Below, in pieces: positions 601 to 5,595 of a stretch of 64,000 bases of DNA. Where the stretch lies: the IMG/VR virus record IMGVR_UViG_3300037247_000990, positions 3,730-67,729 of that record; one strand, given 5' to 3'. Positions within the stretch are counted from its first letter, which is position 1. Each line of letters starts with the position of its first letter. This stretch comes from a virus. A model generated the notes under the pieces. That model did no database searches. It had not been told where the DNA came from and was given only the letters and a program-made list of their open reading frames with translations. Both the position numbers and the translations under genes were made by a program.

Positions 601-2412
601 ATGACACCCCTGCGTGATCTTCTGAACGAGCAGCTTATCCACCTCGACTCATACCGAGCGGGAAATTACAAGCGTCTCTGCCCGATCTGCTCTCACACCC
701 GAAAGAAGAAGTCCGATCCTTGCCTGAGCGTCACGATAGAGCCGGGGTCCGAGGCGGCGACCTGGTTCTGCCATAACTTCGGCTGTGATTTCAAGGGCGG
801 GGTCCGAGAGTCGGATGAACACGGGCACCACCAGTCACAGCGAACTCGACCGTCGGCGCGCCCAACTCTAAAGAGCGGCGGTCTTGGTAAGAAGGCAATC
901 AGGTTCTTTGCTCGTCGGAAGATCGGCGCGGCCGTCCTAGAGCGAAACGGCGTGACCGAGGCTCGGGTCTACATGCCGCAGGTCTCGAAGAAAGTAGACG
1001 TGATGGCGTTCCCATACCGGCGCGGCGGCGAGCTGATCAACGTCAAGTACCGGGGGCCCAACAAGATATTCCGCCAGGAGAAGGGGGCTGAGAAGATCGT
1101 CTACGGCTATGACGACGTAGTAGGCCAGGATGAGATCATCATCGTCGAGGGAGAGCTGGACAAGCTGGCGCTGGAGGAGGCCGGAGTCCTGAACGTCTGC
1201 TCCGTTCCCGACGGAGCCCCGGCGGCGGTCGCGGAGAACGTACCCCCCGAGGAAGAAGATCGGAAATACGACTTCATCTGGAACTGTCGGGAGCTGTGGG
1301 ACAAGGCGAGCCGGATCCTGATTGCCACGGACGCCGACGAGCCCGGCGACGCTCTCGCCGAGGAGCTGGCCCGGCGTCTCGACAAGGCGCGGTGCTGGCG
1401 TGTCCGGTGGCCGGCGATCAACGACGACCCGATGAAGGACGCGAACCAGGTCTTGATGGAGTGCGGCCCCCAGGTCCTTACGGAGTGCGTCGCGAACCCC
1501 GTCCCCTACCCTATCATCGGGCTCGGCTCGTTCGGGGAGGTGTGGTCGAGGATCAAGACCTACTATCAACACGGCCTGGAGCGCGGCCTCTCGACCGGTT
1601 GGTCTACCCTGGACGGCTACTACCACGTGTTACCGGGCGACGTTACAGTCATCACCGGGGCACCGGGGAGCGGCAAGTCCGAGTGGGTAGACGCGCTGGC
1701 GGTCAACCTGGCGGTGGAATACGGATGGGTGATCGCGACCTGCTCGATGGAGAACACCGCCGAGGAACACTTTGCCAAGATCGCCGAGAAGTTCCTGGGC
1801 GTGCCATTCTTCGAGGCCGAGTACGCGTCCGGCACTCCGAGGATGGGTGAGGGGGATCTGGATAAGGCTCTGGCCTGGGCTGATAAGCACTTTGTCCGGA
1901 TCGACTGTGAGGGAGACCAGTTACCCACCTACGAGTGGATTCTCGACGTAGCTCGCAGCGCCGTGATGAGGCATGGTATCCGGGGGCTGGTGATCGACCC
2001 GTACACGGAACTGGACCACCAGCGCCCAGAGGGGATGCCGGAGACCGAGTACGTCTCGACGATGCTGTCGAAGGTCAGACACTTCGCGCGGACGAACGGA
2101 GTCCACGTGTGGTTCATCGCGCACCCCCGCCAGCTCAGGGACTGGAACGGCGCGGCTCCCGGACTGTACGACATTTCCGGCTCTGCCCACTGGGCCAACA
2201 AGCCCGATGTCGGAATCGTCATCAGCCGGAACCGCGACCCTGCGGTAGGCGCTCTTGACGAGGTCGAGATCATCCTGAGAAAGGTCAGGCGCAAGATCGT
2301 CGGCCAGATCGGCAGCGTCACGCTTCGCTACGACCGCGTGACCGGGCGGTACTTCGACTTGACGCCCGTAAAACCCGAGCCGGTGCAGGAGGCCTTTGGA
2401 TATACACCATGA
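601..2412 (+). CDS. Twinkle/T7 gp4-type primase-helicase
   Basis: N-terminal Zn finger (CPIC...CHNFGC), TOPRIM (IIVEGELD, ATDAD), Walker A GAPGSGKS, LVIDPY, AHP and DISGS SF4 helicase motifs. Confidence 0.93.
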   Translation: MTPLRDLLNEQLIHLDSYRAGNYKRLCPICSHTRKKKSDPCLSVTIEPGSEAATWFCHNFGCDFKGGVRESDEHGHHQSQRTRPSARPTLKSGGLGKKAIRFFARRKIGAAVLERNGVTEARVYMPQVSKKVDVMAFPYRRGGELINVKYRGPNKIFRQEKGAEKIVYGYDDVVGQDEIIIVEGELDKLALEEAGVLNVCSVPDGAPAAVAENVPPEEEDRKYDFIWNCRELWDKASRILIATDADEPGDALAEELARRLDKARCWRVRWPAINDDPMKDANQVLMECGPQVLTECVANPVPYPIIGLGSFGEVWSRIKTYYQHGLERGLSTGWSTLDGYYHVLPGDVTVITGAPGSGKSEWVDALAVNLAVEYGWVIATCSMENTAEEHFAKIAEKFLGVPFFEAEYASGTPRMGEGDLDKALAWADKHFVRIDCEGDQLPTYEWILDVARSAVMRHGIRGLVIDPYTELDHQRPEGMPETEYVSTMLSKVRHFARTNGVHVWFIAHPRQLRDWNGAAPGLYDISGSAHWANKPDVGIVISRNRDPAVGALDEVEIILRKVRRKIVGQIGSVTLRYDRVTGRYFDLTPVKPEPVQEAFGYTP

Positions 2413-4115
2413 TTAGGATATTGACTGGCGACGTGCGCGAGAAACTGGCCGAGCTGGCGGACGAATCGGTGCATTGCGTGGTGACGAGCCCGCCATATTG
2501 GAGCCTTCGGGATTATGGTGTCGCGGGGCAGATAGGCTTGGAACCGACGCCCGACGAATATATCGCCACCATGGTCGGCGTGTTCCGCGAGGTTCGCCGG
2601 GTGCTGCGGGCAGACGGGACGCTTTGGCTGAACATGGGAGATTCTTACGCCACTAGGGGTGGGGCTGTCGGGCGGTCCCCCGGTGGCGGCGAACAAGGGG
2701 AGCGCTTTCTAAGACAAGGGCACATAAACACGCAGCCTAATCGAATGCCACTAAAGGGGTTCAAACCCAAAGATTTGATCTTGATGCCCGCCCGCATTGC
2801 TCTCGCCCTTCAATCCGACGGCTGGTGGCTGCGCTCCGAGATCGTCTGGGCCAAGCCCAACCCGATGCCTGAAAGCGTGACGGATCGACCGACCTCGGCG
2901 CATGAGAAGGTATTTCTACTCTCAAAATCCGCACGCTATTTCTATGATTCTGAGGCGGTACGAGAGAAGACGTCAGGCGATTGGCGTGGTTCGGAATTTG
3001 ATACTGGGAAAACGGGCGTTCACCAACTCGACCGCAGCCAGTCAGCCGCAAGTCGTAAGTCTAAAGGGGGCCGCTATCGTGGCAATGCCGAAGAAAACAC
3101 ACAAGCCGTGCAGCCGATGCGGGGTGATCCTGCCCAGGGAAGCCTTTTACCCGAGAAAGGACGGATCACGAGAACATGTTTGCAGGCCGTGCGCCAAAGC
3201 GCGGGTGATGGACTGGCGGGCGACGAAAGCGGGACGAGAAAAATATCTGGCGGCAAATCGTTCAGAAGCGGAGGTGGCGAGGACCAAGCGATATTTTGCA
3301 ACACCGAAGGGCAAGGCGGCAATCAGACGGAAACGGGCAGTTCGCCGAGCCCGGGAACGAAAGATCATCTCGACGCTGACAGTGGAGGAATGGCAGGAAA
3401 TACAGGAACGCCACCAAATGAGGTGTGCGTATTGTCAGGACGACGGCTTACCGTTGACGCAGGATCATGTAATCCCGATCAGCAAGGGGGGGCACCACAC
3501 GATGATGAACATTGTTCCAGCGTGCAAACCTTGCAACAGCCGGAAGAAGGACAAGTTGCTGGCCGCAATTTAAGGAACGTCTGGAACATCGCCACCCAGC
3601 CCTACCCGGATGCCCATTTCGCCACATTCCCAACGGCGCTGGTTGAGCCCTGCATCAAGGCGGGGACCAGCGAGAAGGGATGTTGCCCGGAGTGCGGCGC
3701 GCCGTGGGTGCGGGAAGTGGAGAAAGAGCGAACCTTTGAAAGCGGCTCTGGGCGGGCTGGCAATATGCCAAACGGCAAGAACGGGCCGAACTTGCAGGGC
3801 GGTGGTGAGACATTGGACATTAGACGCGGCCCTGTCGTGCATAGCATCACAACCGGCTGGTCACCGTCATGCGAATGCCTGATCTTTGAAGACGAAAACG
3901 AAGCAGCCGAATGGGGGGCAAACGAAAATGGACCACAGAATCCATTGCCCTGCACCGTCCTTGACCCCTTCGCCGGCTCCGGCACCACCGGATTGGTCGC
4001 CGACCGGCTGGGGCGGCATGCTATTCTGATCGAGCTGAATCCAAAATATTCTACGCTCGCAGAAAAGCGGATTGCGCAGGATGGTGGGATGCTGACAGAA
4101 ATTATCATGCAATGA
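2409..4115 (+). CDS. N4/N6 DNA methyltransferase (beta class) with large insertions
   Basis: VTSPPY catalytic motif, WAKPNPMPESVTDRPT, HFATFP, VLDPFAGSGTT SAM-binding motif, and a CPEC...CEC insert. Confidence 0.92.
   Translation: MIRILTGDVREKLAELADESVHCVVTSPPYWSLRDYGVAGQIGLEPTPDEYIATMVGVFREVRRVLRADGTLWLNMGDSYATRGGAVGRSPGGGEQGERFLRQGHINTQPNRMPLKGFKPKDLILMPARIALALQSDGWWLRSEIVWAKPNPMPESVTDRPTSAHEKVFLLSKSARYFYDSEAVREKTSGDWRGSEFDTGKTGVHQLDRSQSAASRKSKGGRYRGNAEENTQAVQPMRGDPAQGSLLPEKGRITRTCLQAVRQSAGDGLAGDESGTRKISGGKSFRSGGGEDQAIFCNTEGQGGNQTETGSSPSPGTKDHLDADSGGMAGNTGTPPNEVCVLSGRRLTVDAGSCNPDQQGGAPHDDEHCSSVQTLQQPEEGQVAGRNLRNVWNIATQPYPDAHFATFPTALVEPCIKAGTSEKGCCPECGAPWVREVEKERTFESGSGRAGNMPNGKNGPNLQGGGETLDIRRGPVVHSITTGWSPSCECLIFEDENEAAEWGANENGPQNPLPCTVLDPFAGSGTTGLVADRLGRHAILIELNPKYSTLAEKRIAQDGGMLTEIIMQ
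3079..3573 (+). CDS. HNH endonuclease nested in the +1 frame of the methyltransferase
   Basis: AAGGGGG SD, then GTG-GCA-ATG. CSRC...CRPC Zn finger, followed by CAYC, DHVIPISKGG and NIVPACKPCNSRK (HNH). Confidence 0.88.
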   Translation: MAMPKKTHKPCSRCGVILPREAFYPRKDGSREHVCRPCAKARVMDWRATKAGREKYLAANRSEAEVARTKRYFATPKGKAAIRRKRAVRRARERKIISTLTVEEWQEIQERHQMRCAYCQDDGLPLTQDHVIPISKGGHHTMMNIVPACKPCNSRKKDKLLAAI

Positions 4116-4269
4116 TGGAGACGTGGTCCAAATACAAGATGTTGTGTTCTACGATGAAAGTGTGTATATTTAGATCGCGTCTCCGACCTGATCTTCGCAG
4201 AGCAGGTTAGCGTGTCTGGTGGGGCCGTCGAGCTTGTCATGGGGGTCGGCGGCCCCTACCATGTGCGCC

Positions 4270-5595
4270 ATGGCACGGGCGCGGAAGACAACAGGTGCGA
4301 AGCTGAAGGTCGAATACTGGTCGGTGGACCGGGTCGAACCGTATCACCTCAACCCGCGCAAGCGCACCAAACGGGCCATCAAAATCGTGGCCGACTCCAT
4401 TCGTGAGTTCGGTTTCAAGCAGCCAATCGTCGTTGACAAGAAGGGGGTCATCATCGCGGGCCATGGACGCCACCTGGCAGCCCAGCAACTTGGTCTCGCC
4501 CAGGTGCCAGTGGTCGTTGCCAAGGACTTAACTGCGGCGAAGATCAAAGCCTACCGCATTGCGGACAACCGAACTGCCGAGGAATCGGGCTGGGACATGC
4601 AACTGCTTCCATTGCAGCTCGGCGATCTCGATAAGTTGGGGTTCGATCTGTCGCTGACCGGGTTCACGATGGCGGAGCTCGGGGGTATGAATTTACATGG
4701 AGGCGACGAAGGGGCCGACGAAGCCCCGCCGCTGCCGAAAAAGCCGGTCTCGAGGCCGGGTGATCTCTGGACGCTCGGCGACCACCGGCTGCTGTGTGGC
4801 GATGCTGGGGACGAGGGGGATGTGAGACGGGTGATGGGCGGGATCTATCCTCATTTGATCGTGACCTCGCCGCCATACAACCAACGGATCAATAAATTCA
4901 AGCCATCTGGGATGCACAAGGAAGGCGGGTGGGTAGCGAAGGTGGCATCGCTTGCCTATAGCGACGACATGCCGGAGAGCGAATATCAGGCGCGACAGAC
5001 GGCGCTGCTAAGGTCTTGGCATGACCTCCTCAGAAACGGCGGTTCGGTATTTTACAATCACAAGAACCGATATCGCGACAAGGCAGTGATCAGCCCACTC
5101 CAGTGGCTACCTGGACCATTTTCATTGAGGCAAGAGATCATTTGGCGGCGACCGGGATCGGTCACGCAAAACGCCCGGATGTTCTTACCGTCCGACGAAC
5201 GCATTTATTGGCTCTACAAGGGTACAAATTTCACGTTCAACGACGAGACCGAAATCAAGTCGTGGTCAACCGTTTGGGACATCGCCCCTGGTGGCGACAA
5301 ACGCCATGCTGTCGCATTTCCGGTCGAGTTGCCGATACGGTGCATCCGGGCGTCATCACATGAAAATGACCACGTCTACGACCCATTCCTTGGCTCCGGC
5401 ACCACCCTGATCGCCGCCGAGATGGAGGGGCGGGTGTGCCACGGTCTGGAGATCGAGCCAGCGTTCGTTGATGTGGCTGTTAAAAGATATGTCAATTTTG
5501 TCGGTGGTGCTGGTAAAGTCCGTCTAACGACGGACGGCGGGCGGCCTGTCTCTTATGAAAAAGTGTTTAAAATGCGGGAGGGAAAAGCAGCTTAA
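4270..5595 (+). CDS. ParB N-terminal domain fused to an N4/N6 DNA methyltransferase
   Basis: SIREFGFKQPIVVD...IIAGHGR...YRIADNR (ParB), then HRLLCGD, TSPPYN and DPFLGSGTT. The ORF is open from 4219. Confidence 0.9.
   Translation: MARARKTTGAKLKVEYWSVDRVEPYHLNPRKRTKRAIKIVADSIREFGFKQPIVVDKKGVIIAGHGRHLAAQQLGLAQVPVVVAKDLTAAKIKAYRIADNRTAEESGWDMQLLPLQLGDLDKLGFDLSLTGFTMAELGGMNLHGGDEGADEAPPLPKKPVSRPGDLWTLGDHRLLCGDAGDEGDVRRVMGGIYPHLIVTSPPYNQRINKFKPSGMHKEGGWVAKVASLAYSDDMPESEYQARQTALLRSWHDLLRNGGSVFYNHKNRYRDKAVISPLQWLPGPFSLRQEIIWRRPGSVTQNARMFLPSDERIYWLYKGTNFTFNDETEIKSWSTVWDIAPGGDKRHAVAFPVELPIRCIRASSHENDHVYDPFLGSGTTLIAAEMEGRVCHGLEIEPAFVDVAVKRYVNFVGGAGKVRLTTDGGRPVSYEKVFKMREGKAA

What the first reader, a model, noticed from the sequence alone, without database searches (positions are those of the whole stretch)
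3079..3573. HNH endonuclease fully nested in the +1 frame of an uninterrupted DNA methyltransferase
Seen: the MTase frame stays open across about 165 codons that read as featureless G/S/T/Q-rich sequence. The +1 frame has its own SD, start, Zn finger and complete HNH motif. The HNH stop (TAA 3571-3573) lies within the Leu-Arg codons of the conserved RNLRNVW motif, so the insert ends exactly where the MTase core resumes. No intein ends or obvious intron boundaries are visible. Inference: a homing endonuclease that avoids disrupting its host by occupying a variable loop and keeping the host frame open, with no splicing needed. With the antisense intein nuclease, this gives two overprinted mobile nucleases in one genome.
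Basis: partly seen in the sequence, partly recalled or inferred. Interest (0 to 1): 0.82.

Follow-up and report, generated by a model that had tools for sequence, protein, structure and literature searches.

The report
Hidden HNH nuclease inside methylase gene
A phage DNA-methylase gene carries a 492-base insert that is read straight through in the methylase frame while a second frame of the same DNA encodes a mobile HNH nuclease; the arrangement is real, but the same kind of element was first described in other phages in 2025.

Summary
The PF01555 DNA methyltransferase ORF (2409-4115, 568 aa) runs without a stop through a 492-bp (164-codon) insert at 3069-3560. The insert is absent from most homologues. 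In the +1 frame it holds a complete HNH endonuclease gene (GTG 3079 or ATG 3085 to TAA 3571-3573), with a Shine-Dalgarno-like site, a zinc ribbon and intact catalytic residues. No intron or intein signature was found, and the insert is modelled as an unstructured loop.

In the window alone the open frame is only mildly unusual (P about 0.02-0.04). Relatives settle the question. The same HNH family sits inside homologous methylases in 9 other metagenomic loci. In 8 of them it is in the +1 frame, with 0 (6 loci) or 1 (2 loci) host-frame stops. GC-matched free-standing relatives carry at least 4-9 stops. The ninth locus is a split methylase.

The kind is already published: the 'ShiLan domain' of actinobacteriophage methylases (Arsenault, Gosselin and Gogarten 2025). 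The window's element shows no sequence similarity to it and uses a different frame, site and HNH family. I therefore rate it a new variant of a known kind. Expression, homing and absence of splicing are still inferred.

The parts
2409..4115 (+). DNA methyltransferase gene (beta-class N4/N6 type, PF01555), one uninterrupted 568-codon frame
   Evidence: SPPY motif near the N-terminus and DPFAGSGTT near the C-terminus (translation).
2409..3068 (+). MTase N-terminal lobe plus native variable linker (aa 1-220)
   Evidence: Homology to 80 IMG/VR MTases ends at about aa 186-260. AF2 pLDDT is high to about aa 189.
3069..3560 (+). 492-bp (164-codon) insert, read through in the MTase frame as a Gly/Ser/Thr/Gln-rich loop
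   Evidence: Absent from insert-free homologues. Composition. pLDDT <50 and no secondary structure across aa 190-383.
3069..3074 (+). GGCCGC, left copy of a hexamer repeated at both insert borders (Gly-Arg codons)
3561..3566 (+). GGCCGC, right copy, exactly 492 bp downstream. It opens the conserved G-RNLRNVW block.
3064..3070 (+). Shine-Dalgarno-like AAGGGGG, 8 nt before GTG 3079 and 14 nt before ATG 3085
3075..3080 (+). -10-like hexamer TATCGT, 4 nt before ATG 3085 (a lead only)
   Evidence: The promoter scan found no full sigma-70 site on the + strand here.
3079..3573 (+). HNH endonuclease gene in the +1 frame of the MTase (164 aa from GTG 3079, 162 aa from ATG 3085, TAA 3571-3573)
3109..3192 (+). 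N-terminal zinc ribbon of the HNH protein (CSRC ... CRPC, residues 9-36)
   Evidence: Beta strands 6-33 with pLDDT >90.
3424..3546 (+). HNH catalytic core (residues 114-154: CxxC, DH, N, CxxCN)
   Evidence: Pfam stretch. Invariant columns. Profile match to PDB 4H9D at E 1.5e-13.
3564..3584 (+). RNLRNVW codons, where the conserved MTase core resumes. The HNH stop overlaps the Leu-Arg codons.
   Evidence: N387, R389, V391, W392 invariant in 24 MTases
3561..4115 (+). MTase C-terminal lobe (target-recognition and AdoMet-binding part)

Best explanation
This is a mobile HNH homing-endonuclease cassette. It lives inside a phage DNA methyltransferase gene without any splicing.

How it most likely works:
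- The 492-bp cassette sits in the variable linker between the two lobes of a beta-class (PF01555) methylase, immediately 5' of the conserved RNxRxVW codons.
- Ribosomes translating the methylase read straight through it. This adds a 164-residue disordered loop, so the enzyme is made in one piece.
- The same DNA, one base out of phase (+1), encodes a zinc-ribbon HNH nuclease with its own start (GTG 3079 or ATG 3085) and Shine-Dalgarno site.
- Because nothing removes the insert, selection keeps its length a multiple of three and the host frame free of stops.
- In this +1 geometry a host-frame stop arises only where an HNH codon ending in T precedes a codon starting AA, AG or GA. Such a stop can always be removed by a synonymous T-to-C change, so stop avoidance costs the nuclease nothing.
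- The nuclease presumably cuts or nicks insert-free methylase alleles at the conserved motif, and the cassette is copied in during repair.

Shown here: both ORFs, the domains, the insert mapping, the lack of intron or intein signals, stop avoidance in relatives, and the patchy distribution.

Inferred: translation of both frames, methylase activity, nuclease specificity and homing.
For: Anatomy.

Insert mapping: it is absent from insert-free homologues and lies just before the invariant RN.R.VW block.

No splicing signature:
- Rfam found nothing at E up to 10 except two irrelevant hits.
- Pfam found only PF01555 in the MTase frame.
- AF2 gives confident lobes, but aa 190-383 are <50 pLDDT with no secondary structure.

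Codon pattern in the window: 0 of 45 'risky' HNH codons (AA/AG/GA-initial) follow a T-ending codon, against 17 of 116 other positions.

Relatives: of 162 loci with a relative of this HNH (window, L005 and 160), 10 have it inside a homologue of this MTase.
- 9 are read-through forms with the HNH in the +1 frame and both MTase halves in one frame.
- 7 of those 9 have no host-frame stop and 2 have one.
- Synonymous-permutation P(0 stops) is 0.002 (L083), 0.0026 (L094), 0.0005 (L095) and 0 of 20,000 (L169, L170, L005).
- GC-matched free-standing relatives carry at least 4 stops (0 of 45 fewer, GC 0.50-0.60) or at least 9 (0 of 33 fewer, GC 0.40-0.50).

Frame-specific conservation over 36 pairs: the summed alignment score is 9659 in the HNH frame, 3420 in the host frame and 2610 in the unused frame.

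Patchy distribution: a single clade of the 10 HNH-bearing MTases is rejected (p-AU 0.0018; 30 rows, the 20 insert-free ones chosen by me). The window's nearest MTases are insert-free.

Nuclease identity: the closest solved relative is the Gme HNH nicking endonuclease 4H9D.

Precedent: the same reading was published for the ShiLan domain (PMC11855218; abstract, introduction, results, discussion and legends read).
Against: - In the window alone the open frame is only mildly improbable: 0.02, or 3.9% of comparable windows in this genome.
- Two of the 8 read-through relatives have one host-frame stop each: L090 TGA at 2101 and L173 TAA at 2425.
- L084 is a truly split MTase with a free-standing HNH between the halves. 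An unbroken methylase is therefore not obligatory.
- No RNA or protein data exist. No RNA run holds the stretch, and I found no closely related phage or insert-free allele.
- The HNH-core tree (81 columns) is unresolved, so one origin or several cannot be told apart.
- Low pLDDT is not proof of disorder or of a working methylase.
- No full promoter was found in the window for the HNH.
Confidence: 0.77

Rival explanations
1. The nuclease and methylase are functional partners rather than parasite and host. On this reading the embedded HNH cuts DNA that lacks the methylation made by its carrier. The result is a compact, inseparable restriction-modification-like or competitor-exclusion module, and overprinting guarantees co-inheritance.
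For: HNH genes of three unrelated kinds are overprinted on methylase genes: sense +1 (this family), sense third frame (ShiLan/Mantra, HNH_3) and antisense (L023, L054, L060; PF01844). Annotated HNH genes lie directly upstream of the PF01555 methylases in phages DLane and Mantra, and in several others listed. None of the other 152 loci with a relative of this HNH showed it nested in a recognisable non-methylase gene; six long overlapping frames tested had no Pfam domain.
Against: The distribution among closely related methylases is patchy, as expected of a selfish insert. Most homologues work without it. The ascertainment is biased, because I searched from a methylase. There is no evidence on the nuclease's target. 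The authors of PMC11855218 mention this only as something 'one could imagine'.
Confidence: 0.1
2. The insert is removed by a splicing or bypass mechanism that current models do not recognise (a degenerate group I intron overlapping the ORF, an atypical intein, or ribosomal bypass). On this reading the open frame is incidental.
For: Homing endonuclease genes usually ride in introns or inteins. The same genome has a bona fide intein, and L084 has one in its methylase. The borders carry a short repeat (GGCCGC), and a degenerate copy of the downstream motif is seen in L083 and L084. This resembles the feature that PMC11855218 discussed as a possible intron signature.
Against: There is no Rfam intron hit. 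The HNH ORF fills 495 of the 505 bases from 3069 to 3573, leaving no room for a ribozyme core outside it. The insert shows no Hint domain or fold. The residue after the insert is Gly, not Cys/Ser/Thr. RNA splicing would remove any selection on host-frame stops, yet these are avoided.
Confidence: 0.06
3. The open frame is chance in a moderately GC-rich sequence. On this reading the methylase is an inactivated or effectively split gene disrupted by an ordinary free-standing HNH gene.
For: The window-only probability is 0.02-0.04. At GC around 0.7, relatives are stop-free in all frames by composition alone: 27 of 80 genome loci. Split and single-stop forms exist. The 2025 paper states that close relatives of phage ShiLan lack any homologue of its methylase, so such methylases are dispensable.
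Against: Six independent read-through relatives at GC 0.40-0.62 are stop-free where 4.6-10.9 stops are expected. All 9 read-through forms keep both halves in frame. The flanking methylase motifs are intact, including residues invariant across 24 homologues.
Confidence: 0.06

Closest known systems
ShiLan domain: out-of-frame 'hidden' HNH in a stop-free insertion of actinobacteriophage DNA methylases (Arsenault, Gosselin and Gogarten, Genes 2025, PMC11855218; Gosselin et al., Genes 2023, PMC9957025)
   Same: Both are an in-frame, stop-free insertion in a phage DNA methylase of the DPPY...FxGxG (beta-class) layout. In both, an alternative sense frame encodes an HNH nuclease with zinc fingers, a GTG start lies a few bases into the insert, and a TAA lies at its very end. 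Neither has intron or intein signatures. In both the insert is predicted as a looped-out, low-confidence segment, the start of the insert weakly echoes the sequence downstream of the site, and distribution among methylases is patchy. (Paper sections read; Mantra gp64 inspected.)
   Different: [quoted passage not shown] They belong to different Pfam families: HNH_5/HNH with a C-terminal core here, HNH_3 with a central core in Mantra. The frame is +1 here and the third frame there. The methylases share only motifs IV and I, and the insertion site differs. A Shine-Dalgarno site is present here, whereas the paper reports none and proposes leaderless initiation. The source here is an uncultivated phage from a marine-sediment metagenome, not a Mycobacterium phage.
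Pacc40 gp60 methylase insertion with hidden HNH-like ORF (same 2025 paper, section 3.6)
   Same: It is a second, unrelated out-of-frame nuclease ORF in a read-through insertion of a phage methylase, with free-standing relatives next to methylase genes in other phages.
   Different: The host protein is different (helicase plus methylase). Its sequence was not fetched or compared here.
Inteins with antisense or out-of-frame homing endonucleases (Gosselin, Arsenault and Gogarten, bioRxiv 10.1101/2025.01.02.630785; passages read)
   Same: A homing nuclease is overprinted on a host-frame segment that must stay open because it is translated.
   Different: In those cases the host-frame segment is an intein that splices itself out. 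Here no splicing domain exists.
Genes split by free-standing homing endonuclease genes
   Same: A nuclease gene sits inside a host gene with no intron or intein. The natural example found here is L084: the N-half ends in a stop, a free-standing HNH of this family follows, and the C-half has its own Met.
   Different: In the window the host gene is not split. One frame runs through.
Gme HNH nicking endonuclease, PDB 4H9D (Geobacter metallireducens Gmet_0936)
   Same: It is the closest solved relative of the catalytic core (profile E 1.5e-13; Foldseek top hit, probability 0.99).
   Different: It is a small stand-alone enzyme of 112 residues. It lacks the N-terminal zinc ribbon and helical repeats, and it is not overprinted.

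Membership tests
ShiLan-type element (out-of-frame HNH in a read-through methylase insertion) | Insertion in a DNA methylase gene relative to insert-free homologues | tested here: met
ShiLan-type element (out-of-frame HNH in a read-through methylase insertion) | No stop in the methylase frame, and insert length a multiple of three | tested here: met
   492 bp, 164 codons, 0 stops
ShiLan-type element (out-of-frame HNH in a read-through methylase insertion) | Alternative frame of the insert encodes an HNH endonuclease | tested here: met
   HNH_5 E 2.1e-12 and HNH E 6.1e-11, both above cut-offs
ShiLan-type element (out-of-frame HNH in a read-through methylase insertion) | No detectable intron or intein features | tested here: met
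   (computational only)
ShiLan-type element (out-of-frame HNH in a read-through methylase insertion) | Disjunct distribution among related methylases | tested here: met
   AU test p 0.0018 on 30 rows; scattered on the 89-row quick tree
ShiLan domain proper (homologous family) | Sequence homology of the hidden nuclease to the ShiLan/Mantra HNH, in the third frame | tested here: not met
   BLASTP E = 2 against the Mantra hidden HNH. HNH_3 versus HNH_5. Frame +1, not +2. ShiLan itself was not fetched; Mantra, which the papers call a divergent member, was used.
HNH (His-Me finger) endonuclease | Catalytic His, Asn and metal/zinc ligands intact, with a beta-beta-alpha core | tested here: met
   C114, C117, D127, H128, N142, C147, C150, N151 invariant. 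Strands 129-131 and 143-145 plus helix 148-153. 4H9D match.
Homing endonuclease (functional class) | Cleaves the insert-free allele and is copied into it | not testable with these tools
   Only a patchy distribution supports mobility.
Intein | Hint fold; Cys/Ser at the start; His-Asn at the end followed by Cys/Ser/Thr | tested here: not met
   The insert starts Gly-Arg, ends Gln-Val-Ala and is followed by Gly. No Hint hit. No fold.
Group I/II intron carrying a homing endonuclease ORF | Ribozyme core detectable, with the host frame normally interrupted | tested here: not met
   No Rfam intron match at E up to 10. The host frame is open. The ORF fills nearly the whole insert.
Beta-class N4/N6 DNA methyltransferase (PF01555) | Motif IV (S/D)PPY N-terminal and motif I FxGxG C-terminal, with a Pfam score above cut-off | tested here: met
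   152.1 bits against a cut-off of 26.7. S27, P28, P29, Y30 and D519, P520, F521, G523 are invariant in 24 homologues. Activity and base specificity were not tested.

The most novel reading that the evidence does not exclude
Read-through nuclease cassettes may be a general strategy that evolved convergently. At least three unrelated HNH lineages (sense +1 here, sense third frame in ShiLan, antisense in L023/L054/L060) colonise several sites of PF01555 methylase genes across environmental phages. The +1 lineage exploits the rule that NNT and NNC codons are synonymous, so it clears host-frame stops at no cost to itself. It may carry its own -10 element, giving a short-leader or leaderless mRNA. 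Its restriction to methylase genes may reflect functional coupling between nuclease and methylation, making it a hybrid of homing element and restriction-modification module.
Probability: 0.15. Interest if true: 0.75.

Novelty: new variant of a known kind. Interest (0 to 1): 0.5.

Why it matters
This is a third way, besides introns and inteins, for a selfish nuclease gene to live inside a host gene: the host protein simply tolerates a translated junk loop.

The window shows that the arrangement is not a peculiarity of Mycobacterium phages. An unrelated HNH family does the same in environmental phages, at several sites, and the statistics show that the host frame is actively kept open.

Practical consequences:
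- Gene callers that allow one frame per locus will miss these nucleases.
- Long 'disordered inserts' in phage enzymes deserve a six-frame look.
- The insertion sites mark loops of beta-class methylases that tolerate 160-250 extra residues, which is useful for protein engineering.

Tried and rejected
- Intron or other RNA family: an Rfam scan of 2300-4300 at E up to 10 gave two irrelevant weak hits.
- Frameshift fusion of the MTase N-half to the HNH: the +1 frame is open from 2881/2902 in the window. In the 8 read-through relatives, however, a stop lies 2-7 codons before the HNH ATG. I rejected this as a general mechanism.
- Expression and polymorphism: no RNA holder was listed, and the only run holding the stretch may be the source sample. 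Laying its contigs showed one 763-base contig covering both insert borders (2845-3607, no differences). There was no joint that skips the insert. The four joints listed do not match the insert borders. No verdict on expression or on an insert-free allele.
- Close relatives of the phage: the primase-helicase finds nothing above 37% identity in IMG/VR, so there is no recent presence/absence comparison.
- HNH tree: 151 rows and 81 columns, unresolved. It does not tell one origin from several.
- Cellular genomes: 80 loci, mostly high-GC Actinomycetota. None is flanked by this MTase, and their open frames are explained by GC about 0.71.
- Isolated phages: tblastn with the HNH found 118 records, and none of the 40 listed lies under an annotated methylase.
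- Long overlapping frames at six non-MTase HNH loci had no Pfam domain, so I read them as chance.
- A detour through DLane gp65 and DotProduct gp64 (C5 methylase, PF00145) did not lead to the ShiLan domain. It did show an out-of-frame LAGLIDADG-type ORF.
- Scope: I looked for nested ORFs in only the 8 of 80 MTase loci with the longest matches. Four had HNH ORFs. The other four (L014, L048, L063, L067) were judged by eye only.
- The supplementary files and GitHub repository of PMC11855218, which hold its survey of similar elements, were not seen. They may already list PF01555-type cases like this one.
Full report
WHAT IS THERE. The window is part of a 67.7-kb IMG/VR virus record with direct terminal repeats. 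Its neighbours are a primase-helicase (601-2412) and a ParB-methylase (4219-5595). Terminase, Mu-type portal, tape-measure and an intein-bearing gene lie further on.

The ORF 2409-4115 (+, 568 aa) is a PF01555 N4/N6 DNA methyltransferase (E 2.9e-44), matched in three stretches. One base out of phase, the frame 2902-3573 is open. Its last 162-164 codons encode an HNH endonuclease: HNH_5 at 47.2 bits and HNH at 42.7 bits, both above Pfam's cut-offs.

GTG 3079 and ATG 3085 are the plausible starts. AAGGGGG (3064-3070) lies 8 nt before the GTG. TAA 3571-3573 overlaps the Leu and Arg codons of RNLRNVW. The protein has an N-terminal CxxC...CxxC ribbon, helical repeats and a C-terminal core whose Cys, Asp-His and Asn residues are invariant in nine relatives. 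The AF2 model has mean pLDDT 81. Its closest solved relative is the Gme HNH nicking endonuclease 4H9D (profile E 1.5e-13; Foldseek top hit). The genome holds no second copy.

WHERE THE INSERT LIES. In 80 IMG/VR homologues of the methylase, similarity to the window protein stops at about aa 186-260 and resumes at about aa 361-402. An alignment with 12 insert-free proteins shows their conserved block G-RNxRxVWxI...AHFATFP. The window's copy of that block (GRNLRNVW) starts at 3561. N387, R389, V391 and W392 are invariant in 24 methylases.

The hexamer GGCCGC occurs at 3069-3074 and again at 3561-3566, 492 bp apart. This delimits a 164-codon in-frame insert. In the methylase frame the insert is 17% Gly and 41% Gly+Ser+Thr+Gln.

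NOT AN INTRON OR INTEIN, AS FAR AS SEQUENCE SHOWS. Rfam gives no intron match even at E 10. Pfam sees only the methylase domain in the host frame. The insert begins Gly-Arg, ends Gln-Val-Ala and is followed by Gly, so it lacks intein end residues. An AF2 model built on 24 homologues has two confident lobes (many residues >90 pLDDT), but aa 190-383 are below 50 with no secondary structure. The HNH ORF fills almost the whole insert, leaving no room for a ribozyme core.

IS THE OPEN FRAME MORE THAN CHANCE? In the window alone, only mildly.
- Permuting synonymous codons of the HNH ORF leaves the host frame stop-free in 2.1% of trials (mean 3.1 stops). Drawing codons from neighbouring genes gives 0.9%.
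- In 43 long ORFs of the window, 419 of 10,853 windows of 164 codons (3.9%) are open in the equivalent frame.
- The codon pattern is pointed. A host-frame stop can arise only where an HNH codon ending in T precedes one starting AA, AG or GA. None of the 45 such positions follows a T, against 17 of 116 other positions.

RELATIVES DECIDE IT. Scans of IMG/VR and of metagenome contigs with an HNH alignment gave 160 loci. With the window and L005 that makes 162 loci. In 10 of them the HNH lies inside a homologue of this methylase.

Nine are read-through forms: the window, L005, L083, L090, L094, L095, L169, L170 and L173. In all nine the HNH is in the +1 frame and the two methylase halves are in one frame.
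- Seven have no host-frame stop across the HNH ORF.
- L090 has one (TGA at 2101) and L173 has one (TAA at 2425).
- Expected stops from synonymous permutation are 4.6-10.9. P(0) is 0.002 (L083), 0.0026 (L094), 0.0005 (L095) and 0 of 20,000 for L169, L170 and L005.

The tenth locus, L084, is a split gene. The N-half ends in a stop. A free-standing HNH follows, which by eye differs at one residue from protein P0004. The C-half then starts with its own Met in another frame.

Free-standing relatives look quite different. At GC 0.50-0.60, none of 45 has fewer than 4 stops in that frame. At GC 0.40-0.50, none of 33 has fewer than 9. One of 20 at GC 0.60-0.70 has none. At GC about 0.71 in cellular genomes, 27 of 80 are open, which is a composition effect and shows the limit of the test.

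WHAT IS SELECTED. Over the 36 pairs of the nine read-through elements, summed local alignment scores are 9659 in the HNH frame, 3420 in the host frame and 2610 in the unused frame. The nuclease is the conserved protein. The host-frame peptide is hardly more conserved than a by-product of the overlap would be. What seems to matter there is the absence of stops and the length.

The constant +1 geometry has a simple rationale from the standard code (my inference). NNT and NNC are always synonymous, so every potential host-frame stop can be removed without changing the nuclease.

SITES AND MOBILITY. The cassette occupies at least three positions:
- just 5' of RNxRxVW (window, L094, L005, L173, L169);
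- 3' of a copy of that motif, with a degenerate second copy after the insert (L083, L084);
- between NPMPESV and DRPTxxHE (L095, L170, L090).

On a quick 89-row methylase tree the HNH-bearing genes are scattered among insert-free ones, and the window's nearest neighbours (L002, L021) lack the insert. On a 30-row subset (the 10 carriers plus 20 insert-free rows that I chose), the tree forcing the carriers together is rejected (delta lnL 116.7, p-AU 0.0018). An attempt on all 89 rows returned no answer. This fits transfer between methylase alleles, or repeated loss. The direction is not shown.

EXPRESSION. The window has a good Shine-Dalgarno site for GTG 3079. In the relatives, SD-like motifs before the start are mostly absent. 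However, a TA-N3-T hexamer starts 6-15 nt before the start codon in 7 of the 10 methylase-embedded genes. The comparison values are 22 of 128 free-standing relatives under the same start rule, and 76 of 816 ATG triplets in the same loci.

By my reading of the sequence, L005 has TTGACA, 17 nt, then TATAAT overlapping its first ATG. The pattern was defined after seeing the data, and it partly overlaps the upstream stop codon. It is a lead towards an internal promoter and a short-leader or leaderless mRNA, not a result. The promoter scan found no full + strand site in the window.

WHAT IS KNOWN. A full-text search found Arsenault, Gosselin and Gogarten, Genes 2025 (PMC11855218). I read its abstract, introduction, results, discussion and legends.

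The paper describes the 'ShiLan domain' of actinobacteriophage methylases as a 202-aa insertion without stops in the methylase frame. It hides a 195-aa HNH in the third frame, with a GTG 18 bp into the insert and a TAA in its last four bases. It has no intron or intein features, a predicted looped-out structure and a disjunct distribution. The paper also reports a second case in Pacc40 gp60.

Passages of Gosselin et al. 2023 (PMC9957025) document the patchy distribution. Two further searches found only these two papers, a genome announcement (PMC12613952, listing only) and a preprint on non-canonical inteins (passages). All concern actinobacteriophages.

I fetched Mantra gp64, which the papers name as a divergent ShiLan-domain carrier. 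Its hidden ORF (L246 2436-3125) is HNH_3 and shows no similarity to the window's nuclease (E = 2). The two methylases share only motifs IV and I. The window is therefore the same kind of element but an independent lineage, with another frame, site and nuclease family. The paper's repository and supplements were not visible to me.

OTHER OVERPRINTED NUCLEASES SEEN. Three IMG/VR homologues of the methylase (L023, L054, L060) carry antisense PF01844 HNH ORFs inside inserts whose methylase frame is open. P(0 stops) is 0.004 for L054 and 0.018 for L060. The permutation is uninformative for L023 because the frames are in register. DotProduct gp64, a C5 methylase, has an out-of-frame LAGLIDADG-type ORF within its annotated continuous CDS.

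LIMITS. Nothing here shows that either frame is translated, that the methylase is active, or that the nuclease homes. Two single-stop relatives and one split relative show that methylase continuity can be lost.

VERDICT. The mechanism is a read-through homing-endonuclease cassette (confidence about 0.77). It is a new variant of a kind published in 2025, of moderate interest.

Noticed in passing
window 12184-14136 (+), with antisense ORF 13249-14016 (-): The 650-aa ORF just after the portal gene (not itself identified) contains an intein. It starts CLSGDT and ends THN followed by C. The Pfam Intein_splicing hit is 30.5 bits, below the cut-off. A 255-aa ORF on the opposite strand occupies the intein's middle. 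That ORF has only sub-threshold HTH and REase_MTES_1575 (PD-(D/E)xK) hits. It resembles the 'anti-sense VSR-like' intein endonucleases in minor capsid genes reported in bioRxiv 10.1101/2025.01.02.630785.
   Followed up: partly
L023 4226-4846 (-), L054 2738-3445 (-), L060 3872-4378 (-): Antisense PF01844 HNH ORFs lie inside inserts of homologous methylases whose sense frame stays open. In L054 and L060 the insert lies between W.I..P and HFATFP and carries a host-frame SPDCPVHG motif. Their zinc-finger repeats weakly resemble those of the Mantra/ShiLan HNH (E 5e-5).
   Followed up: partly
L084 100-3000: One methylase gene carries a LAGLIDADG intein (CLSGGT...THN followed by S) before NPMPESV. 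It is also split further on by a free-standing HNH of the window's family, and the C-half has its own Met.
   Followed up: partly
L090 2101 and L173 2425: The only host-frame stops in read-through relatives lie 16-17 codons after the HNH start in both loci. I do not know whether this is coincidence, decay or a functional split.
   Followed up: no
L095 and L170 (also L090), host frame flanking the site-B insert: The host-frame peptides at the insert borders are conserved between loci (GS..RH.T.EEYE.LS and CPGC.(R/K)C..GY before GRPT..HE). They may be a zinc-binding module of the methylase or part of the cassette.
   Followed up: no
L023 3099-3746: A second interruption lies after the DPPY region, with a frame change and an antisense 109-aa ORF rich in repeated basic K-x-K-I-S-type motifs. 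It could be an intron or another nuclease remnant.
   Followed up: no
L244 686-1141 (Mycobacterium phage DotProduct gp64): An out-of-frame ORF with an LAGLIDGEG motif lies within an annotated, uninterrupted C5-methylase CDS. It was judged by eye and not Pfam-tested.
   Followed up: no
L243 2615-2977, L246 208-564 and rows: Annotated HNH endonuclease genes lie directly upstream of the PF01555 methylase in DLane, Mantra, StAnnes, Juniper1, Filuzino and other actinophages. This is a recurrent nuclease-methylase adjacency.
   Followed up: no
window 2845-3607 in run X1: The source run's contig graph breaks inside the conserved methylase motifs on both sides of the insert. The insert-bearing contig has depth 13.8, against 9.6-9.8 for the flanks. 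This may reflect shared motifs from other organisms.
   Followed up: no
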